This document shows positions 8,594 through 62,701 of a DNA stretch of 64,000 bases, in pieces. The stretch is taken from the IMG/VR virus record IMGVR_UViG_3300032323_003835, positions 32,001-96,000 of that record. One strand, given 5' to 3'. Below the pieces are notes generated by a model that ran no database searches, was not told the origin of the DNA, and was given only the letters and a program-made list of their open reading frames with translations. The position numbers and the translations under genes are program-made. Each line of letters begins with the position of its first letter. The stretch's first letter is position 1. Source of the DNA: a virus.

Positions 8594-8809
8594 TTAACGG
8601 GTTGCCCAACGGAAGCCACCAGCAGTTTGTAAAATACCTCTTGTTGCTTTAGAAATGCTGCTAGGATCTACACCGGTGGTTAGACCAGCTTCACGCATAG
8701 AAGAAAATCTTTTTAATTTTCTGCCGCCTGTTGTCATTTGCAAAACTGATTTTGCTGTTGAATTTTTTGCTTTTTTGCTTTTAGCAGTAGCTGTTTTTGT
8801 GTTTGCCAT
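8594..8809 (-). CDS. Small NUMOD1-domain DNA-binding protein
   Basis: VLQM...G..LKRFSSMREA...GV..SSIS.A.RG...TAGGFRW. Confidence 0.75.
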   Translation of the reverse strand: MANTKTATAKSKKAKNSTAKSVLQMTTGGRKLKRFSSMREAGLTTGVDPSSISKATRGILQTAGGFRWATR

Positions 8810-8892
8810 TTTTTTGATTATTTAGGTTTTTAATTATAACTATTATAGTACAACAGTTACATTTTGTTTCAAAAATGGCAAATTTGAGCGGT

Positions 8893-9336
8893 TTATAGGA
8901 AATCTATGACTATTTCCCCGGATCCTTGAATCTCTGTTAAAAATCTTTCCACGTCCTTCATGGATTCTTCGTCGGGGGTTATTCTAACATCTTCCCAACT
9001 GGGATTAGATCCCAACGAGCTTAAAACGTTCTTTAATATTCCAGATGCAGAAACACACGGTTTGGATGATCCAATTGTTGATTCTATTTGATCTATTGGT
9101 TCCCCCGATAAATATTTAAACTTAGACAGCGATATTTTAACCTCGGATTCCAGAACAGTTTTGGAACCCCCGTTTCCAGAAACTCCCGCGTTAAACTCGC
9201 AGCAATTTAGGGATTCGTATAGAATCCATGATTTTGATTGATTAAAAGCTCCTATATTAATATAAGATATTTTTTCTCCCGTAGATTTTACCCTTGCTGT
9301 TATATCGTGTGACAATTTTACTATGATTTTCAACAA
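8893..9336 (-). CDS. Hypothetical protein
   Basis: 147-aa ORF; start uncertain. Confidence 0.55.
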   Translation of the reverse strand: MLKIIVKLSHDITARVKSTGEKISYINIGAFNQSKSWILYESLNCCEFNAGVSGNGGSKTVLESEVKISLSKFKYLSGEPIDQIESTIGSSKPCVSASGILKNVLSSLGSNPSWEDVRITPDEESMKDVERFLTEIQGSGEIVIDFL

Positions 9337-9368
9337 ATATAAAAATAGAAAGGGAAATAAAAAAATGT

Positions 9369-9923
9369 TTAGACAAATTTATTTTCCCTAATCCAGATGA
9401 CTGCAATATATTTTATTCCTGATGTAACCGGAAGACCTGCATGTATAGATGTATAATCCAAGGAACCATCAGATTTTATATTGTCCCAAACAACTAATTT
9501 TCCCTTCTGTGGTATCACCTTTATCTCCAATTGTGGGAATTCAGTCTCTCCTCCGGTAAAGTCTTCATTGAGATAAACTAAAGCAGTTTTAGCTCTCTGA
9601 CCACCTCTATTAGTTACTTCTTTTTCATAATAGTTCTCTCCTGGATGGAAAAAGTCATGATGCACTTTATATTCCCCACCTATCTCATATTTAACTATGT
9701 GGGTTCCCTCCATATTTTCCTCAGGAAATAAAGTATATTCGGAAACCATTTTTCTTAGAAGCGAAACAGACTCATCTTGTGAAGAAAGCCAAGCACCCTG
9801 TGCTACTCGATACCCATCGATCTCTTTTCCTAAGGTGGATGTTTTAGTAAGCTGCGGCTGTGATAATTCTATTAGTGAATTGCAATGGTCCGCTGACAGA
9901 AACTCGTTTAACTCTGATACCAT
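9369..9923 (-). CDS. 2OG-Fe(II) oxygenase, prolyl 4-hydroxylase-like
   Basis: HHDFF (HxD), GGQR..TALVYLN..GGETEFP, HAGLPV..G.KYIA..WIR. Confidence 0.9.
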   Translation of the reverse strand: MVSELNEFLSADHCNSLIELSQPQLTKTSTLGKEIDGYRVAQGAWLSSQDESVSLLRKMVSEYTLFPEENMEGTHIVKYEIGGEYKVHHDFFHPGENYYEKEVTNRGGQRAKTALVYLNEDFTGGETEFPQLEIKVIPQKGKLVVWDNIKSDGSLDYTSIHAGLPVTSGIKYIAVIWIRENKFV

Positions 9924-9931
9924 ATAAAGAA

Positions 9932-10189
9932 TTATATTGCGGGATCTAGTTTTACGTCGTCTTGAGTATCTTCGCCCGGATCGTAAGTTATGCTATATTT
10001 TTCTATTGTATACTTTGCAATAACATCACAAAGCTTTTGGTCCTCTACCTGAGTTCCGTCAGGATTTGAAACTGTAACTGTTTTATCATCTGTAGTTAGA
10101 TCCTGATAGAAAGAAACCATGAAATTTCTTCCGTTAACAAGAAAGTCAAAGACTAGTGTGCAATGTAGTGGACTGGATTTAACGCTCAT
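9932..10189 (-). CDS. Hypothetical protein
   Basis: 85-aa ORF. Confidence 0.55.
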   Translation of the reverse strand: MSVKSSPLHCTLVFDFLVNGRNFMVSFYQDLTTDDKTVTVSNPDGTQVEDQKLCDVIAKYTIEKYSITYDPGEDTQDDVKLDPAI

Positions 10190-10255
10190 ACGTTTTTATT
10201 GATTATAGATATGAATCAGGGAATAATTCCGGGTAATAGCGGGTTTTATAGTAAA

Positions 10256-10900
10256 CTATTTCTTTTTAAAATCTACTTTCCAATAAACTCCTCCTCTTAC
10301 ATAAGGAATGAATTTTCCGTCTATACCATTAATTGTTTGATTCCAAACCCCCAATCCAACCTCATAAATTCTATCTCCGGGGGTTCTGTACAATAGAGAA
10401 GTTCCCAGGGAATAAACGTAATTAGGTTTATCTAAACCCCCATTCAGACCCAAATATAGATTACCCCTAGGTTCTTCTTTTATTTTTTGTATACTTTCTT
10501 TTACTGGTAATTTGATTTTTGAAAAATATTTACGAGAAAGTATATTTCCGCCAGACACCGTATCTATAATTGTAACATATCCGTGATCGACCTTAAGAGT
10601 GTCTATATTTACCTTTTTTGTATTATAAGCACTAAGTATTGCGGAGGTATCAACAGGAGAATATACCAAAACATCTCTATAAATAATGGTATCTCTTAAT
10701 ATTGGGAATGGTACTTCTAATTCTAGGTAAAGCGTGTCACGGATAATTATTGTATCCACAGGATTTTCATGGATTGAATCCTTAACAACGACCGGCATTT
10801 TTCTGCCGCTATTATTACAGCTGTAAAAAAATTGAGAAAATATTAAAATTAACACCACTATCGTAGTGCTTAATTTGAAATTGTCGTGTTTTAAATTCAT
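10256..10900 (-). CDS. Membrane-anchored protein with beta-rich C-terminus
   Basis: N-terminal hydrophobic segment, DTI repeats, alternating aromatic/Gly strands ending GGVYWK. Confidence 0.65.
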   Translation of the reverse strand: MNLKHDNFKLSTTIVVLILIFSQFFYSCNNSGRKMPVVVKDSIHENPVDTIIIRDTLYLELEVPFPILRDTIIYRDVLVYSPVDTSAILSAYNTKKVNIDTLKVDHGYVTIIDTVSGGNILSRKYFSKIKLPVKESIQKIKEEPRGNLYLGLNGGLDKPNYVYSLGTSLLYRTPGDRIYEVGLGVWNQTINGIDGKFIPYVRGGVYWKVDFKKK

Positions 10901-10952
10901 TTTATACTTTAGGTCGTGTAACTAAAGTATAGGTTTCAATCTATACTTAAAT

Positions 10953-11681
10953 CTATTCGGTGAATATTCCTTTCTTAATCATCTTATCTAAGATGTTAGC
11001 ACAAGCTATATCCAAAGCTTTCTTTGTCGATGTGCTGATTGTTGATTGATTAAACTTTATTGGATCAAGTGCTGCATCAGAAACCAGTGTTAATTCTCTA
11101 GTTGTTTTGGATTCACCTAAACCAGAAGCTGCTATAATTGCTCCAGTTTCTGCGTTAGTAAATCTAACTTGAAGTCCCAATCTAGTTACCAAATTATCTT
11201 TAATTCCGTCTTTCAAGCTGATCGACTCATCTTCGGATACTGAATAATCATAAACCTCGATTTCAACGAAATAATGGGCTAATTTAATTTTCCCTCTTCC
11301 GTCTATTTTATTTTCTGATATACCAGCCTGAGATGCTTGGAACTGCTTTACCATTCTGTTCTTAATCTCTGTCTTATCTTCAGTAAACTCAAATCTATTT
11401 AGATTGTCTAGGTATTCCAATACTATATTAGCAACACCAAGGCCTACTCTCTTTTCTTTCAATTCTGGATATGCCTCATAGGTCTCATCATTAATACCGC
11501 ACTTTAAAATTTGGATATTTTTCTTTGGACCATCGTAATCAAGATAGGCTGAAATATCTTTCTTCTTTTCAAAATCCGCTTTAAAATCCTCGGTTTTTGT
11601 TTTACCTATCGTTTGTGCATCTACGGATGTTGCCAATCCGATAGATAAAAACGTTACTGCAATAAGTTTAAGTAGATTCAT
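10953..11681 (-). CDS. CsgG/HfaB-like exported protein
   Basis: Signal peptide; GLGVANIVLEYL...RFEFTE, AHYFVEIEVYDY, LQVRFTNAETGAII resemble the CsgG core. Confidence 0.7.
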   Translation of the reverse strand: MNLLKLIAVTFLSIGLATSVDAQTIGKTKTEDFKADFEKKKDISAYLDYDGPKKNIQILKCGINDETYEAYPELKEKRVGLGVANIVLEYLDNLNRFEFTEDKTEIKNRMVKQFQASQAGISENKIDGRGKIKLAHYFVEIEVYDYSVSEDESISLKDGIKDNLVTRLGLQVRFTNAETGAIIAASGLGESKTTRELTLVSDAALDPIKFNQSTISTSTKKALDIACANILDKMIKKGIFTE

Positions 11682-11691
11682 CTTCTTTTAA

Positions 11692-11925
11692 TTATTTTTT
11701 AATCTCTGTTGGTTCGTACCAGATATTTTCGGGATTGTCTTTCCAGTTTCCGTCTATTTTTCTAGTAACTCTACTCGTGATATCTCTTGTTCTTTCTTCA
11801 TCTCCAGAAAACTGAAGATAAACAAAAAACAATTGCAATGATAATGCGGTGCATATCCAAAATCCTACAAGGACGAAATATACTCCTAATGCTTTTTCTG
11901 CTGCTTTTTCTAAAAACTTTTTCAT
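11692..11925 (-). CDS. Small single-pass membrane protein
   Basis: One long hydrophobic segment. Confidence 0.6.
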   Translation of the reverse strand: MKKFLEKAAEKALGVYFVLVGFWICTALSLQLFFVYLQFSGDEERTRDITSRVTRKIDGNWKDNPENIWYEPTEIKK

Positions 11926-11949
11926 GGGGGTTGTCGTGTTTTATATTTA

Positions 11950-11976
11950 AAAGAGCGGGATGCCCCGCTCTTTTTT
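11950..11976. terminator. Intrinsic terminator-like hairpin
   Basis: aaagagcggg-atgc-cccgctctttt with A/T flanks. Confidence 0.55.
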
Positions 11977-11981
11977 GTGAT

Positions 11982-12233
11982 TTATTCGGTTTCTTCTTCG
12001 GATTTTGTTTTTCCCTTTCCGAAGATTTTACCAGCTTCTGCGATACCAAATGATCCTAAAGTAATTATTACGAACGAATTAAAGATGGTATCACTAATCT
12101 CTAATGTTTTTCCTAAAATACCTGTTATAATATCAGCTCCTGCGAATACTGCCATAACAGCAAACGATGCGAATCCAACGATTGATTTTTCGTTATAATC
12201 GTTTTTGTCTTTAAAAATGTCTTTGAATGCCAT
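11982..12233 (-). CDS. Small two-TM holin-like membrane protein
   Basis: Two hydrophobic helices, charged C-terminal tail. Confidence 0.6.
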   Translation of the reverse strand: MAFKDIFKDKNDYNEKSIVGFASFAVMAVFAGADIITGILGKTLEISDTIFNSFVIITLGSFGIAEAGKIFGKGKTKSEEETE

Positions 12234-12263
12234 GATAAATTTATTTTATATTGTTGTAGCGGG

Positions 12264-12833
12264 TTATCCCTCTAAGTCATCTTTTAATAATCCACATTTT
12301 TGACACTCAAGTTCCCCGTCATTATCAGAATCGCCCCATACGTGTTCACATTGTCTGTGAGACTCATATTCAAGCTTTTCCATTTCCTGCTCGTGCTCTT
12401 GTGCATCTTTAGCTAGTTCAAATTTTTGCTGATTTTCTATAATCGATAATTCTCTAGCAGCTTGTGCTCCTGCAACGAATGCATCAGGAATAAGAGGAGT
12501 AACTGGCTTGTTAGTTTCTTTCATGTCATTGGTGTGTGATAGAGTAACTCCATCTTCTTCATCCATCTTCTGTACAAGCATTTTATCTTTGTCTGTATCA
12601 GAGAACCAATAATCAATAATTTTACCATAAGAGCCAATAAATGCCCCTAATAATAGAAGAAGTAATTCTTTCCATTCTCCTGCTATTTCGGTTCCAACTC
12701 CTATAGCGGCAAACATACCTGCTATAATTAGCATGAAACCTCCTAATACTAATGCAGTGATGTACCATCTGCGTGTCATCATTGAATTCAGTAGATCTTT
12801 AAATCCACTTGGTTGTTGATTTTTTCCTGTCAT
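12264..12833 (-). CDS. Two-TM membrane protein with C-terminal Cys/His knuckle
   Basis: Two TM helices, IIDYWFS motif, CEHVW...CQKC. Confidence 0.7.
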   Translation of the reverse strand: MTGKNQQPSGFKDLLNSMMTRRWYITALVLGGFMLIIAGMFAAIGVGTEIAGEWKELLLLLLGAFIGSYGKIIDYWFSDTDKDKMLVQKMDEEDGVTLSHTNDMKETNKPVTPLIPDAFVAGAQAARELSIIENQQKFELAKDAQEHEQEMEKLEYESHRQCEHVWGDSDNDGELECQKCGLLKDDLEG

Positions 12834-12864
12834 TTTATTTAATTTTTTTGTTGGTGGATATCCT

Positions 12865-13020
12865 TTATCTTTCCCAATTCCACCCTTTTTTTCTACCTCT
12901 TATTAATAAATAACTGCTACCTCCAATAAACGTTGATAAAAACATTAATGGAGAATTAAATACAAACATAGCTACCATACATAATATGATTACTGCTATA
13001 AAGCTTAATCCTTGTTCCAT
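12865..13020 (-). CDS. Small membrane protein (51 aa, not in ORF track)
   Basis: MEQGLSFIAVIILCMVAMFVFNSPLMFLSTFIGGSSYLLIRGRKKGWNWER; starts 2 nt after upstream stop. Confidence 0.55.
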   Translation of the reverse strand: MEQGLSFIAVIILCMVAMFVFNSPLMFLSTFIGGSSYLLIRGRKKGWNWER

Positions 13021-13022
13021 GA

Positions 13023-13346
13023 TTACCACTTAGGTGCTTCTTCCTTAAACTCGTCACCTTCTTTTTTCTTAACCTTCGGTGCAGGTTCAGCAGGCTTTGA
13101 AGCTGCTGCTCCTCCATTACCTCCGCCTTGTACAATTACAGTTTTACCTGCAGATTGTTGTTGCTGGTTAGAATTTGTGATGTTAATAACGGGTGCTGGT
13201 GCTGCTGCGGGTGCTGCTTCTTGATCTCCGCCGCCCATTAGAGTAGTTAGAAATACTCCTCCTGCTGTTACGACTGTACCTAGTACGCCTACGATTGTCT
13301 TTTTTAAACCTGACCAGGTTCCTTCGTTTTGTGTTTCCTCGCTCAT
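13023..13346 (-). CDS. Single-pass membrane protein with Pro/Ala/Gln-rich tail
   Basis: TM helix then APAAAPAP and QQQQ low-complexity segments. Confidence 0.7.
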   Translation of the reverse strand: MSEETQNEGTWSGLKKTIVGVLGTVVTAGGVFLTTLMGGGDQEAAPAAAPAPVINITNSNQQQQSAGKTVIVQGGGNGGAAASKPAEPAPKVKKKEGDEFKEEAPKW

Positions 13347-13378: not shown

Positions 13379-13500
13379 GAAAAAATCCCGGATCAGGTAT
13401 CTACTTTTACTTAACGTTCATAGATGCGATGCATCTAGGAATATACTGAAAAGGTTGTATGAAAGATATTGCTTCTTTCAAACTGAATGAGGATTTTTTC
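13379..13500 (-). ncRNA. Putative structured 5' leader RNA, copy 1
   Basis: Closing stem GAAAAAAUCC/GGAUUUUUUC, internal hairpins, matches 21086-21223; follows GATATATA at 13506-13513. Confidence 0.55.
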
Positions 13501-13517
13501 AAGATTATATATCTTTT

Positions 13518-14972
13518 TTATAACATGATTCTGGATCCAATCATGAAATTATGTAAAATTTTTACCCCTGGCTGGGTCGATCCTGAAAATCTATAATTTA
13601 GATTAAGCCCGAATCTGCCAGTTAATTTATAGTCATACGAAAATCCACTCATAAATCCAAACTGTCTATTAACCAATGTTTGATTTGTGTTTGGATTCCA
13701 TGATATAGGAGAACTTGTTATAAAAATTTGTGGGGATATAGCTACTTTCTTATTTACTTGATAGACCTTTGTCCAGAATCCTATGGAAGATACTGAAGCA
13801 GAATAGCTATATCGATTGCCGTCTTTCAGCAATAAACTAACAAGTCCAACATTGTAACCATATGTTCCTATCTTAGGATCTGGTTTAATGAACGTATAAC
13901 CCTGCATAATCATGATATTTCCCTGCAGGTAAGCAATAGTCGTGGAATATGAATTTATGTTCTTTAACTTACCCTTTTCGAAGTTCATTTTGGTGTATCC
14001 CCCGTTTAATGCAAATTGGTCGAAAGTTGTCCATATCATAGATGTTAATCCCCAGCTTTCTGTTCCGGTCATAGAAGATTTGCTTATCCCAGTTGAGATC
14101 ATAGCAGAATACCTGCCATCATTTCCTTGAGTTACTGCTAAATCCGATGCGACTAGAGTAGGGTTGCTGACCGATTGTTTTTTCTTTTTCTCCTCTTCCT
14201 TCTTTTTCTTCTCTTCTTCTTTTTTCTTCTCTTCTTCTTTTTTATTTTCTTCTTTTTTCTTTTCCTCAGATTTACTCTCTTCTTTCTTTTCTTCTGATTT
14301 AGATTCAGATTTACTCTCTTCTTTCTTCTCTTCTGTCTTGGACTCAGATTTAGATTCCGATTTAGATTCCGATTTGGTTTCTGATTTTTGCTCGCTAGAG
14401 GATCCGCTACTTTTACTTTCCCCGCTAGAAGAAGATGAAGAAGATCCACCGCTAGAAGATGATCCACTAGAACTAGATCCCCCAGAAGAAGCTGAAGATC
14501 CCGCAGATGATCCTGCTGATGTCGAAGCAGAAGAAGATGCGGAAGAACTTGCAGCACTACTTGCTGATGATGATGCAGCAGATGATGCTGAACTACTTGC
14601 AGCAGATGATGCAGCACTACTAGCTGCAGCAGAGGCGGCGGAAGAAGCAGCAGCAGAAGCAGCAGCAGAAGCTGCTTGTGCAACAGTCTGCTGAACCGTC
14701 TGGGTAACGACAGTACTTACAGGACAAGGTCTTGTACCATAGTCTTTATAAACAGCATCCAGCCAAGCCTGAACAGTACCATTATTTACTTCTGCGTTGC
14801 TAAATGTTCTTATTTGATTGTAGAAAGCTATTACTACCATTCCGTTTGGCATGGGGGTAGATACAACAACTTTAAGTTCCCCCGAACATTTATCCACGTA
14901 AGTTTGTGTGAATGTTTGTGCATCCACTTTAAATGCTATAGCCAACAAAAAAAGAATTAGTAATTTCTTCAT
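13518..14972 (-). CDS. Exported protein: Ser/Ala-rich and Glu/Lys-rich linker plus C-terminal beta-barrel-like domain
   Basis: Signal peptide, AASS/SSG and EEKKK repeats, amphipathic beta strands in the last ~220 aa. Confidence 0.75.
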   Translation of the reverse strand: MKKLLILFLLAIAFKVDAQTFTQTYVDKCSGELKVVVSTPMPNGMVVIAFYNQIRTFSNAEVNNGTVQAWLDAVYKDYGTRPCPVSTVVTQTVQQTVAQAASAAASAAASSAASAAASSAASSAASSSASSAASSSASSAASSSASSSASTSAGSSAGSSASSGGSSSSGSSSSGGSSSSSSSGESKSSGSSSEQKSETKSESKSESKSESKTEEKKEESKSESKSEEKKEESKSEEKKKEENKKEEEKKKEEEKKKKEEEKKKKQSVSNPTLVASDLAVTQGNDGRYSAMISTGISKSSMTGTESWGLTSMIWTTFDQFALNGGYTKMNFEKGKLKNINSYSTTIAYLQGNIMIMQGYTFIKPDPKIGTYGYNVGLVSLLLKDGNRYSYSASVSSIGFWTKVYQVNKKVAISPQIFITSSPISWNPNTNQTLVNRQFGFMSGFSYDYKLTGRFGLNLNYRFSGSTQPGVKILHNFMIGSRIML

Positions 14973-15002
14973 CTACAATTTTCTAAAAGGTCTTATTTTT
15001 AA

Positions 15003-15377
15003 TTACAGCTTATTAAAATCTGTAATTCCTAATAGATTATTGTTAGAATCATAAAGTCCAATTCTGTAAGCAGATGATGGAAGTGCTGATGTGTAAACCT
15101 TTAAAAGATTATCACCTGCCTTTACATTAACTTGCTCCTTTGATACTACCTTATTAGAAATGTCCATAATTTTAATGGTTACACTTCCTGCATTTTCTAA
15201 TTTAACATTCATTGCAACCTCATTAGTTACAAATGCGGACTGCAATTTAATTCCAACATTACTTGATATGCTAAGCTCTGGTTTGATCTGCTCATGCACA
15301 CTTGGATAGATGTCATCTTTAGTACATCCTGCTACAAAGAATGCCATTCCGAAAGATACGATTAATACTTTTTTCAT
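15003..15377 (-). CDS. Lipoprotein with T9SS C-terminal-domain-like Ig fold
   Basis: Lipobox VAGC; VTIKIMDISNKVV...GDN...SALPSSAYRI resembles the Por secretion CTD. Confidence 0.6.
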   Translation of the reverse strand: MKKVLIVSFGMAFFVAGCTKDDIYPSVHEQIKPELSISSNVGIKLQSAFVTNEVAMNVKLENAGSVTIKIMDISNKVVSKEQVNVKAGDNLLKVYTSALPSSAYRIGLYDSNNNLLGITDFNKL

Positions 15378-15385
15378 TTTTTTTA

Positions 15386-15730
15386 TTATTTTATTATTAC
15401 GGTCGTTTTTGCTATTTCTTTCTTGAGGGAATCCTCTAATAATAGATATAGGTATTTCGATTGTATTGAGTTTGTGTATATTTTTTTTACAACTTCACCT
15501 GCACTACTTGTGAATCTTTCTCTACTGATTACCTGATTTGTTTCTTTGTCAATTAGTGTAAGTGTATACACACCATCGAAAGGTACATTAAAATAGATAG
15601 ATTGGCCATTAGTTACGGAGCTTTCCTTAACACTGAATATGTCGTCTTTAGCTAATACATCAGGCAGTGGTAGTTCTGGTTTAGTACATCCAGCTAATAA
15701 AATCAACGATATCAAGATTATTTTTTTCAT
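15386..15730 (-). CDS. Lipoprotein, paralog of 15003-15377
   Basis: Lipobox LAGC; YTLTLID...VISRE...KIYT pattern shared with neighbour. Confidence 0.6.
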   Translation of the reverse strand: MKKIILISLILLAGCTKPELPLPDVLAKDDIFSVKESSVTNGQSIYFNVPFDGVYTLTLIDKETNQVISRERFTSSAGEVVKKIYTNSIQSKYLYLLLEDSLKKEIAKTTVIIK

Positions 15731-16623
15731 TAGAATTTAAAATTAGTTCCTATCATAAACATTATTGGGTTACTCTTTTTATATCCAACAGATTCACTTA
15801 GTTTATCCCAGGTTGTGTTATATCTGATATTGGTGTTTAGTATAAACCTTTTAGTTATTTTCCAATCGATAGATGTACCATAGTATAAGTCTAGATTAAA
15901 ATCATCCAGATACCCTAAATCAGATTCGGTTCCATCTTTAAAAACTTTATACACATCACTCATTGCAAATATTTGAGGCGATATGTTTACCCTCTTCGTT
16001 TCGAATGTATATGTGTACATCGCCATACCTCTATATGTCATTTCGCTCGATGGAGGTATTTGTGGATAAATTAAATCCAAAAAATTGCCATCAACATCTA
16101 CTGTATATTTTCCTTCCCATTCACCTGGATAACTTCCCCAGAATGATTTAGATGCAATTAAGCTATAACCGAACGTTCCCCACTTCTTAGTTCGAAATAC
16201 ATCTATGAATGATAGTGTAATATCTTTTTGGAAGTTAAAATCCGTAGAGTAGAATGATTGTAAAGTCGTAGTCCTTTTCTGTGTGTTTTTACTAACACCA
16301 TAACCTACACCGTAATAATTCCATATTGGATTTATTGATGCTGCAAAAGTGTGTCCCCATTTTCCGTTTATAGATGATTTATGGTATCCTAGATTAAGAG
16401 TAGTTGATACTTGTTTTCCTATAATACCTACTGAAAGGTTCGAAGACGAAAGGACATCCTTTGAAAAATTAACATAAGATTGTAATATACCCACATCGTT
16501 CCAATCATCGCTTTCACCAAATAATTCTTTTGGAGACAGCTGTAATGTATCAGGTTTTTGTATTTGTGCATTTGATACAAATACAATTAAAAATAAAAAT
16601 ATGGTTAATACTATTTTTTTCAT
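15730..16623 (-). CDS. Putative outer-membrane beta-barrel protein
   Basis: Signal peptide, aromatic-rich alternating strands, terminal Phe (GTNFKF, BAM-signal-like). Confidence 0.7.
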   Translation of the reverse strand: MKKIVLTIFLFLIVFVSNAQIQKPDTLQLSPKELFGESDDWNDVGILQSYVNFSKDVLSSSNLSVGIIGKQVSTTLNLGYHKSSINGKWGHTFAASINPIWNYYGVGYGVSKNTQKRTTTLQSFYSTDFNFQKDITLSFIDVFRTKKWGTFGYSLIASKSFWGSYPGEWEGKYTVDVDGNFLDLIYPQIPPSSEMTYRGMAMYTYTFETKRVNISPQIFAMSDVYKVFKDGTESDLGYLDDFNLDLYYGTSIDWKITKRFILNTNIRYNTTWDKLSESVGYKKSNPIMFMIGTNFKF

Positions 16624-18920
16624 TAGTTTATTTTTACCTTTAATTGTGTTCCGTTCTTATTAACAGCATCTGTTGTTGATACTGATGTTAAACCTAATAT
16701 GTTATTAATTCCTATTAATGGAACGAATGTTATTTTATATTCGGTTTTGCTGTCTAATGTTGTTGATCCGTCTGTTATTAACGAGCCAAGCGTTACTGAA
16801 GATCCTCTATTAGCACCAAAATTGGTTGGATTACCCTTTGTTGTAAAATCAACTTTTTCAAAACTTAAAGCAGTATTATCATAGTTTAATTGAAATTGTG
16901 TTCCTACAACTTCCTGCTGAAGAGGATCTAAAGATATTGTTATTATAACTTTTCCTCCAACTATTTCCCCCATTAAATAAGCCTTTATCTCATTAGAAGT
17001 TGATGTACTCATAGTTTTTAAACTCATACTTCTAACAGAATTACCGGCAACAGTACTTACACTTTGTTGTGCAGAATGGGATAAATTTACATCACCAACC
17101 CATGTTATGTTTACATTATAAGTATTGTTAAGTGTTCCTGTATTCAAACTGAACGGAAATAGACTTCTGGTTGAATTAAATTGTGTGTTCCAATTAGATT
17201 TCGTTATTGCATCATAATCAGATTTACTATACAATTTCATCAAATAAGTTAATGCTGAAAACTGCGTAAGAGACTGTGCCCCAGTTAAGTGCTGTAATAG
17301 TCTATACGTATCAGCTTCGTTGAATATACCATTTCCGTCTACGTCTGCGTTCATAAACTGAATACCTGACGTAAATTCATTTCCGCTTTCATTACCAAAT
17401 AATCCGCCTAATGATAATTCTTTAAATGCCAAATAAACATCAGATACTGTTACAATACTATTGTATAAAGAGTTTAATTCTGTTTGATTAGAATAAGACA
17501 ATTCAATCCCGTGTTGTTTAAATATTGTATTTGGGGAAAATGAATAATCTGCTTTAAATGCATACCATCCGTCCTGTAATCTTATATTGCTTTGGAACGA
17601 ACTTGCAGCAACTTTACTAGCCAAATTAATATTTCCGGGTACTACCCATTGTTTCCACCATCCATTAAAATCCATTGGTGTAATTGGACCTTCGTAGATA
17701 TCAAATAACTTTACATATTTTACATTGTTTAAGTTAATACCAGTTCCACTAAATACTCTTTCATCAATTTGTAATCTATGCCCGTTTCTTGATTGTTCGT
17801 ACGGATTTATAAGCGACCATTCTACTTGACCCGGAACTATCGTTGCTCTGACTCCGTCGGATATCTTTGCTGTATCTAAATCGTTTGTAATATCAACTTT
17901 ACCCAATCCACTTATTGATCTTGATACATTAGTTGTTGTACCCCATACATTGTTTACATAAGTATTTGCTTTTGCTGAGAATTTAGTTTCATCTACATTA
18001 CTACCAAAATCAAAATTGAATCTTGCGGTAAGGACTTCTCCGTTTGAGTGAGTTACTGAATTGGTATAGAACTCTGTAAATGTTGCATCGTCAGGATTAG
18101 TCCAAGTTCCATATTCGATTACATACGGATTACTAAAGTTATTAGGTAAATCGTTCCATTGAGAACCATTCCATTTTGTTACTGCGTAATCTTCATTACC
18201 AGAATTGTTTGGTTCGCCCGGTGCCCAGTTATTATATTGTCCGGGTATGTTTCCGTTTGTTTGTCCATTATTTATTTTAATTAAAGTTCCTTTTTCAGGA
18301 CCAGCATCAATCACCCATCTGGCTTCACTTGCTTCATCAGTTAGTGCAAACCATATATTTGATTGAGGTACATTATTAAAAATAAAAGCATCTTCATCTG
18401 GTGAAGTGATTGTTACCAAATATCCTTTTTGACCTTTAAATGTTGTTAATTCAGCGGCAGCCCTTGCGTTTGTATAAGTTGCTCCGGTTGATATTGGTCT
18501 ATAAAAGTGTCCGTTTGTTCCATTATAAAAGAAACCCGTTGGATTTACAGTTGCCGCTACTGATAATGCAATATTACCTCTTACCGAACCTGTGTTTACT
18601 TTAAGAGATGTTAATGCCGTATTAATACTTGCCATTGTGCCGGTTACCACTAAACGGGTCTTATTACCTGCTAATGTAAAACCACTTGCTGCGGTTAGAC
18701 CTGTTGTTATGGTTAGGTTAAATGTTGTACCTGTTGGTGGATTAACTAAACTGATTGATGCTAATAGAGTTGATGTAGAAGTAAAACCACTTAATACGAA
18801 TCCACTAGCATCTTGTCCGGCAGTAGATGGTAAAAAAGATTTAGAGTCCGGAGCAGATACACTCTGTCCGAACCCTAAAAATGAAATTAGTAAAAAAAAT
18901 ATTACTAATAATTTCTTCAT
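16623..18920 (-). CDS. Exported C-type lectin / dockerin-like / cohesin-like protein
   Basis: Signal peptide; GHFY..YLVTITS..E, YNNWAPGEPNN, WNDL (CTL); ADVDGNGIFNEAD (dockerin-like); GTQFQLNYDNTAL (cohesin-like). Confidence 0.8.
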   Translation of the reverse strand: MKKLLVIFFLLISFLGFGQSVSAPDSKSFLPSTAGQDASGFVLSGFTSTSTLLASISLVNPPTGTTFNLTITTGLTAASGFTLAGNKTRLVVTGTMASINTALTSLKVNTGSVRGNIALSVAATVNPTGFFYNGTNGHFYRPISTGATYTNARAAAELTTFKGQKGYLVTITSPDEDAFIFNNVPQSNIWFALTDEASEARWVIDAGPEKGTLIKINNGQTNGNIPGQYNNWAPGEPNNSGNEDYAVTKWNGSQWNDLPNNFSNPYVIEYGTWTNPDDATFTEFYTNSVTHSNGEVLTARFNFDFGSNVDETKFSAKANTYVNNVWGTTTNVSRSISGLGKVDITNDLDTAKISDGVRATIVPGQVEWSLINPYEQSRNGHRLQIDERVFSGTGINLNNVKYVKLFDIYEGPITPMDFNGWWKQWVVPGNINLASKVAASSFQSNIRLQDGWYAFKADYSFSPNTIFKQHGIELSYSNQTELNSLYNSIVTVSDVYLAFKELSLGGLFGNESGNEFTSGIQFMNADVDGNGIFNEADTYRLLQHLTGAQSLTQFSALTYLMKLYSKSDYDAITKSNWNTQFNSTRSLFPFSLNTGTLNNTYNVNITWVGDVNLSHSAQQSVSTVAGNSVRSMSLKTMSTSTSNEIKAYLMGEIVGGKVIITISLDPLQQEVVGTQFQLNYDNTALSFEKVDFTTKGNPTNFGANRGSSVTLGSLITDGSTTLDSKTEYKITFVPLIGINNILGLTSVSTTDAVNKNGTQLKVKIN

Positions 18921-18921
18921 A

Positions 18922-20562
18922 TTATTCTATAATTAAATTTATTTTGTTACCAGCTCCATCAACAGCATCTGATAAAACGAAATAAAATAAACCTGCGGTA
19001 TTTGTTAATTGAACCTTAGGTGTGAAAATTAATCTATATGGTTTTCCTGTTTTAATTCTAGCGGTTTTTATCTGATCGATTGAACCGAAAGTTAATCTAC
19101 CATCTTTATGTGTAGAGAAATTTGTCATGGTTGATCCTGAATCAAAGATTACATTATCTAATGTCAATTTAGATTCGTCATAATTCATAATAACCTCTAA
19201 TCCTGCTAATCCTTCTTTTGTTAGGTTTGTAGTTAATACAACTTTACCACCTTCTAATGTTGATGTTACACTCAATTTAGCAGTCTCTAATGCCTCAGTT
19301 CTATAAGCCATTGATTGAGTTGACATAGTTGTCTTGGCGTTAATAGAATTTACAGAATTTGTAAATTGACCAGCATTAATTCTACTTAAAATTTCTGAAG
19401 GATCTGATGAATGTGACCAGTTCAAATCACCACCCCACGCAAATACCGCATAAACTTCCTTAACCGGGGTATCAATTTTAACTTTATTTTTAACATTACC
19501 GTCTAACCAATCTTGATTTAATAAACCACTTTGCCATCTCCATGAAGTTGCAGTTGATGTTGGGATGAATGCGTTTGCTGAAACGTCTTGTCCCATAACA
19601 TAAGCGAATGAATAATATGAATCCGATTCATTAAATACTGCATCATTCCTAGTTATATTACCGACTTTCTTCTCCAAATTAGGATACGTAAAGAAATTAG
19701 AATTACCACTAATATCAGTTTGTGAGTGGCCTAAAAATGATTTATAAGCATCTGATACAGTAATGACGTTATTCATCCAAGCTTTTTGAGAAGCAGGACT
19801 TACGAATACTCCAACAGAATCACCAACTTTAACCTGTGTTGTAAATAGTGCTTCTCCGGTAGCATCCAATGGTAATTGTGCAACTGGTGGTACCGCCCAA
19901 TCAATTGTTCCGTCGGTTTTTAATTTCATCAGCTGAACATTATGATCTGCGATTGTATAACCTTGCGGGAATAAAACTTTAACCTTGAATTGAGAAGTAT
20001 TACCAACCACATTTGTTAATGATAGATTAGTAGAATTTCTAGTGATCGGAGAAATGTTTGCAGACAAATCGCTGATAGCATACGCTAAATCCAATTTGTG
20101 TATATCATTATAGGTATTTTGATCTTTTAACACATATTTTTGTGTTGCAATATCTCCGTTAATTGATGCATCAGCTCTTTGAACTGTTAATTGTCCAACG
20201 TTCCAATCGTTGTTTAAGATGTAAGCCCAAGGAGTAGCTTGATATTGACCATATAAATTAGTAGCTGTCACATTTGGGGCAGGTGTAAATGAGTAATTGT
20301 TCCATCCAGTAAAGAACGTTTGGGTTGAACTACCCTGTGTAAACGCAGTGCTGTTTGGCACCATTGCCAGTGCTTTGTTATTAAAGGAATATCTTAACCA
20401 AAAATAACGCGGAAGAGAAGTACCCCTGTCTACTGTGTACTTTACTGTTAATGTATCACCAACTTTATAGGGAGGAGCAGGTGTTACCGATTGAAACACG
20501 TTAATTTGAGCAAATGACGATAGGGACATTAACATTCCCAGGACTGTTAGTAGTTTTTTCAT
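18922..20562 (-). CDS. Exported cohesin/dockerin-like protein, C-terminal half paralogous to 16623-18920
   Basis: Signal peptide; ITVSDAY, FNESDSY, WGGDLNWSHS, GLEVIMNYDESKL mirror the neighbour. Confidence 0.7.
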   Translation of the reverse strand: MKKLLTVLGMLMSLSSFAQINVFQSVTPAPPYKVGDTLTVKYTVDRGTSLPRYFWLRYSFNNKALAMVPNSTAFTQGSSTQTFFTGWNNYSFTPAPNVTATNLYGQYQATPWAYILNNDWNVGQLTVQRADASINGDIATQKYVLKDQNTYNDIHKLDLAYAISDLSANISPITRNSTNLSLTNVVGNTSQFKVKVLFPQGYTIADHNVQLMKLKTDGTIDWAVPPVAQLPLDATGEALFTTQVKVGDSVGVFVSPASQKAWMNNVITVSDAYKSFLGHSQTDISGNSNFFTYPNLEKKVGNITRNDAVFNESDSYYSFAYVMGQDVSANAFIPTSTATSWRWQSGLLNQDWLDGNVKNKVKIDTPVKEVYAVFAWGGDLNWSHSSDPSEILSRINAGQFTNSVNSINAKTTMSTQSMAYRTEALETAKLSVTSTLEGGKVVLTTNLTKEGLAGLEVIMNYDESKLTLDNVIFDSGSTMTNFSTHKDGRLTFGSIDQIKTARIKTGKPYRLIFTPKVQLTNTAGLFYFVLSDAVDGAGNKINLIIE

Positions 20563-20563
20563 T

Positions 20564-21067
20564 TTAATTTAATAATTGTTTTATTGCTGTTCCGCATACC
20601 TTTTTAATAACAGTTGAAACGGATTGTTGATTCATCTTTCCTCCCTCGTCAACTATTAATGTTGACACTGAAATTTCGGATGCTTTTTCGGTTATTAAAC
20701 ATTCTTTTATTTTTTTCCCCTTGCTATCTAGGAGGTATGCTTTTATTTTTAATACGGTTTCAGCGTTGTTCTTATGGAATACAGCAACGCTAGATTTTGT
20801 TGTTTCAACATCAAAGAATAAAAGATCTATATTGATTTTATAATCAAATTTGGTCTCATCTTCTACTATGTCAAAATTTGTTTCTTGGAGATATTCTTCT
20901 AGGAGATTTTTGAATCCAAAAGTTAACGGCCTGGATCCTGCTAAATTACCGATCATGATCTTATTGTTTATTTCTCCAATAAGAACAGACTTTCCCTGCC
21001 CGAATGATGAAAGGGCAAAAAGGGAAACTACTAAAGTTAGTGTGAGAGATTTAAAGAGGTTTGGCAT
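20564..21067 (-). CDS. Exported protein, first gene of envelope cluster (CsgG/TolB-N-like alpha/beta fold possible)
   Basis: Signal peptide; GFKNLLEEYLQE..FDIVE parallels the CsgG-like gene. Confidence 0.55.
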   Translation of the reverse strand: MPNLFKSLTLTLVVSLFALSSFGQGKSVLIGEINNKIMIGNLAGSRPLTFGFKNLLEEYLQETNFDIVEDETKFDYKINIDLLFFDVETTKSSVAVFHKNNAETVLKIKAYLLDSKGKKIKECLITEKASEISVSTLIVDEGGKMNQQSVSTVIKKVCGTAIKQLLN

Positions 21068-21085
21068 TTTTTCCTATTTTATTAG

Positions 21086-21223
21086 GAAAAAACCCGGCAT
21101 TCCCCCTAAGGAGGGCTTCAAATAAAGATCATTTCTGATTGGGGATCGTGTTTCCCAAAGAGAGACCTTTATGATTTGCTGGTAAAAAAATTGTTTGCTT
21201 TTTTACCGAATGAGGATTTTTTC
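21086..21223 (-). ncRNA. Putative structured 5' leader RNA, copy 2
   Basis: Closing stem GAAAAAAUCC/GGGUUUUUUC, UCCUCAUUC, AGCAA-loop hairpin; follows GATATATA at 21229-21236. Confidence 0.55.
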
Positions 21224-21274
21224 GAGTTTATATATCTAATACAACTCTGAAAATCCACATAGTAAAAATAATAT

Positions 21275-62097: not shown

Positions 62098-62701
62098 GTC
62101 GTGTATTTTTATTTAAGGTAAATGTAATGATTTTCCGCGCGGATAAAAAATGAGAGGTATAAAAAAACCCAAGCTAATAGCTTGGGTATTTTTTTGAAAA
62201 TGAATTCACACGACTAAATTCACATTCGGTAATTGTTGCTGAAAGAATCCTCATTCGTTAAAGCAGATTACCCTTCATTGTTAGATGGTTACCCATCCTA
62301 TTTTGAAGCTCTTATATTCCTGAAACAACTTGTACCAATAAGATGTTTCTGGGTTGTAAATATTGTTATGATTATGCTCCTTCATTATCTTTTACTGCTT
62401 TCTCTTTGGTTTGTTTCACCGGACGAGTAGCTTCTTTCCAAACACTTTTTGGAACGAATTTGTATCCACGATTCTTAACCATCAATTCAGCTTCGTCATC
62501 ATTTACTCTTCTGATATCATTTGCCTTTTGTACCGTCTTCATACTTCTTTAATTTGATTCTGAGTTTGTGATTTTCTCTACATAATAGTCTGTTACGACA
62601 TTTTAGTTTCATGGTTTCTTTACCAGAAATAACAAGAGAAATCAGAAGAACCAATATTGCAAGGCCGGCGCTGATTATTGGGAAAGCCATCTTTGGGATT
62701 T

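What the first reader, a model, noticed from the sequence alone, without database searches (positions are those of the whole stretch)
13379..21223. Two copies of an apparently unrecognised structured leader RNA head the envelope operons
Seen (minus strand): both 13379-13500 (122 nt) and 21086-21223 (138 nt) lie 5 nt downstream of GATATATA, begin GAAAAAAUCCUCAUUC and end CCGGG(A)UUUUUUC, so the ends pair in a 10-bp closing stem. Next comes a hairpin with an AGCAA-containing loop whose stems differ in sequence but still pair (UGAAAGA/UCUUUCA vs GGUAAAAAA/UUUUUUACC), then another hairpin (UAGAUGC/GCAUCUA vs UUGGG/CCCAA). Each element ends about 20-30 nt before an ATG. Structure kept despite sequence change suggests selection. 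Inference: a cis-regulatory RNA (riboswitch, protein-binding or mRNA-localising leader) co-regulating the cluster. I do not recognise it as a known riboswitch.
Basis: partly seen in the sequence, partly recalled or inferred. Interest (0 to 1): 0.8.

Follow-up and report, generated by a model that had tools for sequence, protein, structure and literature searches.

The report
New structured leader RNA in jumbo phage
Two tandem operons of secreted and membrane proteins in an uncultured freshwater jumbo phage each begin with the same folded 120-140 nt RNA leader, which matches no catalogued RNA family, keeps its shape through compensating mutations in related phages, and probably sets how these long messages are used.

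Summary
Both stretches (minus strand, 13500->13379 and 21223->21086) lie 5 nt after a GATATATA promoter box. They share an identical first 16 nt, end in a U-tract that pairs with the 5' end, and fold far better than shuffles (z -4.7 and -3.8).

A covariance model finds exactly two co-oriented copies, 7-8 kb apart, in this phage record and in each of five related records. There are 27 distinct sequences. They keep a four-helix junction (P1-P4): 87.5% of cells are paired, and 23 of 43 pairs change on both sides, against 15.6+-1.7 in shuffles and 6-11 in slid controls. Two variants change the A- and U-tract lengths together (5/5 and 7/7). No Rfam family, tRNA, terminator scan or cultured phage matches.

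The family is confined to one subclade. More distant relatives carry the same operons without it.

Function is inferred, not shown. My best reading is a 5'-terminal cis-acting leader. It buries the transcript's 5' end and offers an invariant 16-nt handle to a trans factor. I also found a conserved third copy of that handle (62241-62256, opposite strand) in the 3' UTR of an early transcript. This could be an antisense partner or a palindromic DNA operator. No RNA data exist. Other first-stage readers in this scan noted the same element in this genome.

The parts
21229..21236 (-). GATATATA promoter box of the upstream (B) operon
   Evidence: The box recurs about 25 times in the record, nearly always just before a start codon.
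21086..21223 (-). Leader copy B, 138 nt. P1 is 21223-21214 with 21095-21086. The P1 extension CAUUC/GAAUG is 21212-21208 with 21102-21098. P2 is 21207-21181, P3 is 21172-21122, P4 is 21114-21103.
   Evidence: Fold. Covariance-model hit of 30.4 bits, E 1e-5. RNAalifold on a plain MAFFT alignment of six B-type homologues recovers all helices.
21067..21092 (-). Alternative hairpin in copy B. The U-tract of P1 plus CCUA pairs with UAGG plus the A-run that ends in the A of the start codon.
   Evidence: -12.4 kcal/mol when folded alone. It competes with P1 in the fold that includes the start region. The inner stem covaries in homologues: CCUA/UAGG, CCAAUU/AAUUGG and CCAAU/AUUGG.
13518..21067 (-). 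Operon B: seven tightly packed ORFs (gaps of -1 to 30 nt) with signal-peptide-like or lipoprotein-like N-termini
   Evidence: Pfam Lectin_C above cut-off; Cohesin, DUF3244 and Por_Secre_tail below cut-off.
13506..13513 (-). GATATATA promoter box of the downstream (A) operon. It lies 4 nt after the stop codon of the last gene of operon B, with no terminator between.
13379..13500 (-). Leader copy A, 122 nt. P1 is 13500-13490 with 13389-13379. P2 is 13480-13460. P3 is 13453-13404.
   Evidence: Fold. Covariance-model hit of 39.8 bits, E about 1e-8.
8594..13346 (-). Operon A: small proteins with hydrophobic segments, then signal-peptide-like proteins. A terminator-like hairpin at 11949-11974 interrupts it.
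62241..62256 (+). Third copy of the leaders' first 16 nt (15 of 16 identical) on the opposite strand. It lies in the 3' UTR of a minus-strand early gene unit, so that transcript carries the antisense of the leader's 5' end. The 12-nt core is an imperfect palindrome, GAAU-N4-AUUC.
   Evidence: The same block is conserved at the same UTR position in two related records, while the flanks have diverged. Predicted duplexes with leaders A and B are -35.3 and -30.3 kcal/mol, against -14.7+-3.0 and -13.2+-2.4 for shuffles.
62161..62195 (-). Intrinsic terminator that ends the early transcript carrying the antisense block
   Evidence: Read from the sequence and seen in the fold.

Best explanation
Both stretches are the 5'-terminal 120-140 nt of the mRNAs of two tandem phage operons that encode secreted, lipoprotein and membrane proteins.

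Anatomy. Each leader is transcribed from a phage-specific GATATATA promoter. A phage sigma factor acting with host RNA polymerase is the likely reader. Transcription probably starts at the G six nt after the box. The RNA folds into a four-helix junction. Its closing helix P1 pairs the first 10-12 nt with a G-rich run plus U-tract 110-140 nt downstream.

Shown here. The fold is conserved with compensatory changes. Each of the six records searched has exactly two copies, at the same two operon heads.

Inferred. The element acts in cis on its own message. P1 buries the triphosphate 5' end, which protects a long polycistronic mRNA from decay that begins at a free 5' end. P1 also ties up the U-tract. 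In the B-type copies the freed U-tract would otherwise pair with the A-rich start region of the first gene. The first 16 nt are invariant even where their pairing partner varies. They are most likely the handle for one trans-acting factor that controls both operons together. Candidates are the antisense block in an early transcript (62241-62256) or a protein that binds the palindromic core.
For: Folding: z -4.74 and -3.78.

Copy number: the covariance model R1 finds exactly two co-oriented copies 7-8 kb apart in the own record and in five related records.

Covariation: there are 27 distinct sequences. On the 22-sequence alignment, 87.5% of cells are paired. 23 of 43 pairs change on both sides, against 15.6+-1.7 in shuffles (0 of 500 reach it) and 6-11 in slid controls. 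P2 differs between lineages but still pairs (CGUG..CACG, GGUA..UACC, GUU..AAC). In P1, two variants change both tract lengths together (A5/U5, A7/U7), and there are G.U replacements. An RNAalifold run not fitted to the model recovers P1-P4 in the B-type set.

Start site: the spacing from box to element is fixed at 4-5 nt in all homologues. Other GATATATA promoters have start codons 0-7 nt after the box, which puts the start about 6 nt after it. Two sigma-70 region-2 genes and no match to the Pfam RNA_pol_Rpb1_2 domain of the largest RNA polymerase subunit were found in an 86%-complete relative.

Alternative pairing: the U-tract alternative hairpin has a covarying inner stem in B-type copies.

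Trans handle: a third, inverted copy of the 16-mer is conserved in a diverged 3' UTR in two lineages. The predicted duplexes are strong.
Against: There is no transcript evidence of any kind.

The family was found only in one narrow subclade. Relatives with the same operons lack it, so it is dispensable for the operons as such.

A simple hairpin would be enough to protect a 5' end. The four-helix junction and the invariant 16 nt therefore need a further reason.

Sequestration of the start region is seen only for B-type copies. In A-type and C-type copies, blocking the 5' strand does not change the accessibility of the start codon.

RNAalifold returns no consensus on the full, gappy alignments. 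The pair counts come from an alignment fitted to the model.

The third site is supported by only two independent lineages. Similarity beyond the 16-mer is not significant.
Confidence: 0.5

Rival explanations
1. A put-like processive antitermination RNA. The nascent leader binds the elongating host polymerase and lets it read through terminators along the 8-9 kb operons, as putL and putR do in phage HK022.
For: There are two related copies just downstream of two promoters that head long operons. This is the HK022 layout as described in PMC9378689. Operon A holds a strong terminator-like hairpin at 11949-11974 with no promoter box before the next genes. The polymerase core is probably the host's, because the 86%-complete relative has sigma genes and no match to the one polymerase domain searched, Pfam RNA_pol_Rpb1_2.
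Against: The architecture differs: a four-helix junction of 110-140 nt closed by the transcript's own 5' end, against two stem-loops of about 70 nt. Operon B has no terminator-like site on its strand apart from one weak hit. Relatives express the same operons without the element. No sequence likeness was seen.
Confidence: 0.15
2. The invariant first 16 nt are mainly a DNA operator. A dimeric phage regulator binds the imperfect palindrome GAAT-N4-ATTC at +5 to +16 of both promoters, and at the third site, and switches both operons at the level of transcription. The RNA fold is a separate, superimposed feature.
For: The 5' strand is invariant while its RNA partner varies. The core is palindromic. 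A third copy occurs in the other orientation outside any leader and is conserved in two lineages. A position overlapping the start site is typical of operators (general knowledge).
Against: The leaders themselves carry AAAT rather than GAAT in the left half-site. No candidate regulator was identified. This reading does not explain the covariation of P1-P4 or the tract lengths that change together in two variants.
Confidence: 0.2
3. A metabolite-sensing or ion-sensing riboswitch. The ligand stabilises the junction and P1, which frees the start region.
For: The leader is a multi-helix junction closed by a P1 whose 3' strand has an alternative partner at the start codon in B-type copies. In copy B the two states are nearly equal in energy.
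Against: Junction and loop nucleotides outside the 5' strand are poorly conserved. Helix lengths and even the topology vary: in the L287 group P3 sits inside P2. A-type and C-type copies have no expression platform. The downstream genes give no hint of a ligand.
Confidence: 0.07
4. A stand-alone small RNA, or an attenuator, that ends at the U-tract. The downstream genes would then be expressed only by read-through.
For: The element ends in U6, preceded in some lineages by a short hairpin, P4. Paired 5' and 3' ends are typical of stable small RNAs.
Against: The terminator scan did not list either 3' end. P4 is only 5 bp and AU-rich, or lies 4-9 nt away from the U-tract. The U-tract is itself inside P1. 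The operons have no other promoter box.
Confidence: 0.05
5. A DNA-level repeat with no RNA role, for example a miniature inverted-repeat mobile element with 10-bp terminal inverted repeats.
For: The ends are inverted repeats and the interior varies between copies.
Against: There are only two copies per record, always at the same two positions and in the same orientation, each fixed 4-5 nt after a promoter. There is no target-site duplication. G.U pairs and internal compensatory changes point to RNA.
Confidence: 0.03

Closest known systems
HK022 putL / putR RNAs (PMC9378689, read)
   Same: Two related structured RNAs per phage. Each is transcribed just downstream of a promoter that heads a long operon, and each acts in cis without needing a ligand.
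   Different: put is about 70 nt with two stem-loops, and it binds the beta-prime zinc-binding domain of the polymerase. Here there is a 110-140 nt four-helix junction closed by pairing of the transcript's very first nucleotides with a U-tract. No antitermination was tested. No sequence likeness was seen.
5'-terminal stem-loop mRNA stabilisers, such as the ompA 5' UTR hairpin (from my own knowledge of the literature, not checked here)
   Same: A helix that begins at, or within a nucleotide of, the 5' end of a long message. That is the feature which blocks 5'-end-dependent decay.
   Different: Known stabilisers are simple hairpins without an invariant sequence. This element is a conserved multi-helix junction with a 16-nt invariant strand.
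Riboswitch aptamers with a P1 switching helix
   Same: A junction closed by a P1 whose 3' strand can pair elsewhere. In B-type copies the other partner is the start region.
   Different: There is no conserved ligand-pocket nucleotides, the helix topology varies, and most copies have no expression platform. Nothing in Rfam 15 matches.
Phage antisense RNA control of an operon leader, such as the P1/P7 c4 RNA acting on the ant operon leader (from memory, not checked here)
   Same: A short RNA stretch made elsewhere in the phage genome is complementary to a conserved stretch of an operon leader.
   Different: Here the antisense stretch is only a candidate. It sits in the 3' UTR of an early mRNA, and neither its expression nor its pairing has been shown.

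Membership tests
Any Rfam 15 family | Covariance-model score at or above the curated gathering score | tested here: not met
   No hits in the whole window at gathering thresholds. At E<=10 around each copy there is only noise of 11-20 bits against cut-offs of 34-80.
tRNA / tmRNA / tRNA-like | A cloverleaf recognised by ARAGORN | tested here: not met
   ARAGORN finds no gene in the window. P4 loops and stems do not match a T arm.
Intrinsic terminator / attenuator | A GC-rich hairpin ending 0-2 nt before a U-run | tested here: not met
   Neither 3' end is listed by the terminator scan. The U-run is part of helix P1.
HK022 put-type antiterminator RNA | About 70 nt with two stem-loops, located downstream of an operon promoter | tested here: not met
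   The location criterion is met. The architecture is a 110-140 nt four-helix junction, whereas PMC9378689 describes two stem-loops.
HK022 put-type antiterminator RNA | Suppresses downstream terminators by binding the polymerase | not testable with these tools
   The only relevant observation is a terminator-like hairpin inside operon A.
Riboswitch | A conserved ligand-binding core | tested here: inconclusive
   Outside the 5' strand few unpaired positions are conserved.
Riboswitch | An expression platform that overlaps the aptamer | tested here: inconclusive
   Present in B-type copies, where the U-tract can pair with the start region. Absent in A-type and C-type copies.
5'-terminal mRNA stabiliser | The helix begins at the first nucleotides of the transcript | not testable with these tools
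   This is inferred only, from the fixed 4-5 nt spacing to the promoter box and from start codons 0-7 nt after other boxes. No RNA runs were found.
Miniature inverted-repeat mobile element | Many dispersed copies with target-site duplications | tested here: not met
   Two copies per record at fixed, syntenic places, with no duplicated flanks.

The most novel reading that the evidence does not exclude
The leaders and the inverted 16-nt block in the 3' UTR of an early, host-promoter-driven transcript form a timing circuit. Early RNA pairs with the first 16 or more nt of both leaders and prevents P1 from forming. In B-type copies the freed U-tract then closes the start region. The phage's exported outer-membrane proteins are therefore held back until early transcripts decline. 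This would be a trans-antisense switch acting on a new structured leader in an uncultured jumbo phage.
Probability: 0.2. Interest if true: 0.8.

Novelty: new variant of a known kind. Interest (0 to 1): 0.6.

Why it matters
Structured RNAs of uncultured jumbo phages are almost unexplored. This one is well defined, short enough to probe in vitro, and has enough natural variants to guide mutagenesis. It heads the only long operons in the region, which encode a phage-made set of secreted, lipoprotein and outer-membrane-like proteins for a probable Bacteroidota host. How it works would show how such a phage times or doses the remodelling of its host's envelope. It would also give a portable 5' leader and promoter pair for Bacteroidota, a phylum whose translation start signals are unusual. 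If the antisense partner is real, the system would be a compact example of RNA-RNA control between early and later phage transcripts.

Tried and rejected
Sequencing runs: 20 holders were found, all DNA, and no RNA holder was listed.

Rfam at gathering and at E<=10: nothing usable.

ARAGORN: nothing.

INPHARED phages: no match by megablast with 8.5 kb, by blastn with the leader, or by tblastn with the 546-aa protein.

Two loose pattern scans of viral contigs mostly returned chance hits and added no new member.

The genome-contig scan gave one chance hit in a Verrucomicrobiota MAG with no element behind it.

Moss and peat metagenome contigs (L280, L299, L343) share the promoter box plus the first 12 nt, but the model does not match them. 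They were left unexplained.

RNAalifold on the full MAFFT alignment and on the model-fitted alignment returned no pairs, because the 3' ends are ragged and the middle is gappy. Subsets work.

The model first reported a 61-nt 'mini' version in three loci. Folding showed these are full 119-121 nt members whose P3 5' strand resembles the P1 3' strand.

Similarity of the third site beyond the 16-mer is not significant (p about 0.2 and 0.7).

A search for more third sites through the neighbouring 57-aa protein and through a flank pattern found only the two already known relatives.

A 15-nt copy inside a coding region of relative G003 could not be placed in other records.

Leader peptide: the short ORFs inside the leaders are not conserved (read from the sequences).

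The PDB sequence search and the protein atlas for the first downstream proteins gave no named fold.


Full report
WHAT IS THERE

The window is part of a 111,205-bp virus record with 36% G+C, which CheckV rates as about a third of a genome. The source is therefore an uncultured jumbo phage. Its closest relatives come from freshwater metagenomes.

Each copy begins 5 nt after a GATATATA box. The first 16 nt of the two copies are identical. Each ends in a G-rich run, six U and a C.

Alone, each copy folds with its two ends paired (11 and 10 bp) around internal hairpins. MFE is -30.3 and -41.1 kcal/mol. The z-scores against dinucleotide shuffles are -4.74 and -3.78. The exact 16-mer occurs nowhere else in the record.

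THE PROMOTER

GATATATA (or AATATATA) recurs about 25 times in the record and nearly always sits directly before a start codon. In several cases the ATG lies only 0-7 nt after the box. Transcription must therefore begin about six nt after the box, which in the two elements is their first G.

The spacing between box and element is 4-5 nt in every homologue. An 86%-complete relative encodes two sigma-70 region-2 proteins. It gives no hit to the Pfam RNA_pol_Rpb1_2 domain, the only RNA polymerase domain I searched. I therefore take the box as the -10 element of a phage sigma factor working with host polymerase. This is inference, because no RNA data exist.

HOMOLOGUES AND STRUCTURE

Scans of IMG/VR and JGI metagenome contigs with the 16-mer, alone or together with the box, retrieved true homologues among chance hits. 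Protein-guided fetches added more.

A covariance model built from three of them finds exactly two co-oriented copies, 7-8 kb apart, in the own record and in each of five related records. In all there are 27 distinct sequences in about eight subgroups.

All members fold into the same plan:
- P1 is formed by the transcript's first 10-12 nt and the 3' G-run plus U-tract.
- P2 is a hairpin that follows the unpaired AUUC.
- P3 is a long and variable hairpin.
- P4 is usually a short hairpin just before the 3' strand of P1.

On a 22-sequence alignment made with the model, 87.5% of cells are standard pairs. 23 of 43 pairs show changes on both sides, against 15.6+-1.7 in column shuffles (0 of 500 reach the observed value) and 6-11 when the partners are slid by 1-3 columns.

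By eye the clearest cases are these:
- P2 uses different sequences in different lineages but still pairs (CGUG..CACG, GGUA..UACC, GUU..AAC, with different inner stems).
- In P1, one variant has five A and five U and another has seven and seven. Two other groups are unequal (A5/U6, A6/U7).
- One variant has a G.U pair in place of an A-U pair in P1.

That alignment was fitted to the model, so I also ran RNAalifold on plain MAFFT alignments. It fails on the full set, where the ends are ragged and the middle is gappy. It recovers P1, its CAUUC/GAAUG extension, P2, P3 and P4 for the six B-type sequences. It recovers P1 and part of P2 for the A-type set. I regard the RNA structure as established as far as computation can take it.

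NOT A KNOWN FAMILY

Rfam 15 gives nothing at gathering thresholds in the whole window and only noise at E<=10 around each copy. ARAGORN finds no tRNA-like gene. The terminator scan does not list either 3' end. No cultured phage in INPHARED matches the DNA or the 546-aa protein.

CONTEXT

Copy B heads seven tightly packed ORFs (21067->13518, gaps of -1 to 30 nt). All have signal-peptide-like or lipoprotein-like N-termini. One has a C-type lectin domain above Pfam's cut-off, and there are sub-threshold Cohesin, DUF3244 and Por_Secre_tail matches.

The stop codon of the last gene lies 4 nt before the second promoter box, with no terminator between. Read-through transcripts from B would therefore carry copy A internally.

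Copy A heads a run of small proteins with hydrophobic segments, then further signal-peptide-like proteins. A strong terminator-like hairpin at 11949-11974 interrupts this run, and no promoter box follows it.

The A-rich start regions without a Shine-Dalgarno sequence, the Por-tail and DUF3244 hints, and the TAnnTTTG-type early promoters point to a Bacteroidota host. This is inference.

DISTRIBUTION

I fetched 80 loci with a homologue of the 189-aa protein of operon A and 80 loci with a homologue of the 546-aa protein of operon B. Only the nearest relatives carry the element.

In more distant relatives the small first gene of operon A follows the preceding gene directly, without promoter box or leader. 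In those relatives operon B is headed by other sequences.

The element was therefore acquired by one subclade. The operons do not need it as such.

A THIRD SITE

A 12-nt core of the invariant 16-mer occurs once more in the own record, at 62241-62256 on the opposite strand, where 15 of 16 positions are identical. It also occurs at the homologous place in two related, near-identical records.

The site lies in the 3' UTR of the last gene of a four-gene minus-strand unit. It sits about 50 nt before that unit's intrinsic terminator. Upstream of the unit I could read a Bacteroidota-type -7 box, following a lead from another first-stage note.

In a pairwise alignment of the two 3' UTRs, only this block and a second 15-nt block next to the terminator are conserved. 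The related phage's copy follows its own leaders for four more nucleotides.

The minus-strand transcript would carry the antisense of the leaders' 5' end. Predicted duplexes are -35.3 and -30.3 kcal/mol, against -14.7+-3.0 and -13.2+-2.4 for shuffles. In the relative they are -33 and -31 kcal/mol.

There are caveats:
- Only two independent lineages support the site.
- Similarity beyond the 16-mer is not significant.
- The core is an imperfect palindrome (GAAU-N4-AUUC), so a dimeric DNA-binding protein would explain the same facts.

HOW IT MOST LIKELY WORKS

Shown: the leader is a conserved multi-helix RNA at the head of two operons.

Inferred: it starts at +1, so P1 hides the 5' end. This is the property known to protect messages from decay that starts at a free 5' end. 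That statement rests on general knowledge of 5' stem-loop stabilisers and was not tested here.

In B-type copies the U-tract has a second partner. Together with the next 4-6 nt it pairs perfectly with the A-run that ends in the start codon (-8 to -12 kcal/mol), and the inner stem covaries. In copy B the two states are nearly equal in energy. A-type and C-type copies lack this feature, so it cannot be the family's general mechanism.

The 16 nt stay invariant even where their RNA partner varies. That calls for a trans-acting reader, either the antisense block or a protein.

I put the reality of a selected, cis-located structured leader at about 0.85. I put the specific reading (5' end protection plus a trans-controlled handle) at about 0.5.

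Rivals are a put-like antiterminator (0.15; layout as in PMC9378689), a DNA operator as the main reason for the invariance (0.2, and not exclusive of the RNA reading), a riboswitch (0.07), a small RNA or attenuator (0.05) and a DNA-only repeat (0.03).

VERDICT

Its function is open. This is a new RNA family of a known general kind, with a narrow distribution. The candidate antisense or operator partner is a testable lead.

Noticed in passing
window 62241-62256 (+), with L543 999-1010: An inverted third copy of the leaders' invariant 5' sequence lies in the 3' UTR of an early minus-strand unit. It is conserved in two lineages while the flanks have diverged. It could be an antisense partner or a palindromic operator.
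   Followed up: partly
window 62204-62218 (+): A second conserved 15-nt block in the same 3' UTR, next to the terminator. On the minus-strand RNA it is complementary to the CACGAC motif found just before the ATG of at least seven early cassette genes.
   Followed up: partly
window 11949-11974: A strong bidirectional terminator-like hairpin inside operon A. It is followed 20 nt later by an AACACGAC-type leader and an ATG, with no promoter box. The downstream genes seem to depend on read-through.
   Followed up: partly
window about 12865-13020 (-): An unlisted ORF of about 51 aa with hydrophobic segments fills the 189-nt gap between the 107-aa and 189-aa genes of operon A.
   Followed up: no
window 13518-14972 (-): The 484-aa protein has a signal-peptide-like start, then long Ser/Ala and Lys/Glu low-complexity runs, and ends with a possible barrel-like domain. 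This gene, promoter A and leader A are all missing in more distant relatives, where the 124-aa gene's homologue is followed directly by the small first gene of operon A.
   Followed up: partly
whole record: Many GATATATA boxes lie only 0-7 nt before an ATG. This implies leaderless or nearly leaderless mRNAs for a large set of genes that share an MKH(I/L)K-type N-terminus.
   Followed up: no
L280, L299, L323, L343 (moss and peat metagenome contigs): These contigs share about 25 nt with promoter A plus the first 12 nt of the leader, but the sequence continues differently and the model does not match it. There is a second AAAAAUCCUCAUA-like stretch about 110 nt downstream.
   Followed up: no
G003:C1:129172-129351 and 144062-144214: Two sigma-70 region-2 genes in an 86%-complete relative. 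No match to the Pfam RNA_pol_Rpb1_2 domain of the largest RNA polymerase subunit was found.
   Followed up: partly
L556 508-522 (G003:C1:176307-176321): A 15-nt exact copy of the leader's start lies inside a coding region on the opposite strand in relative G003. By base composition this is expected by chance about 0.002 times per genome. Its meaning is unknown.
   Followed up: partly
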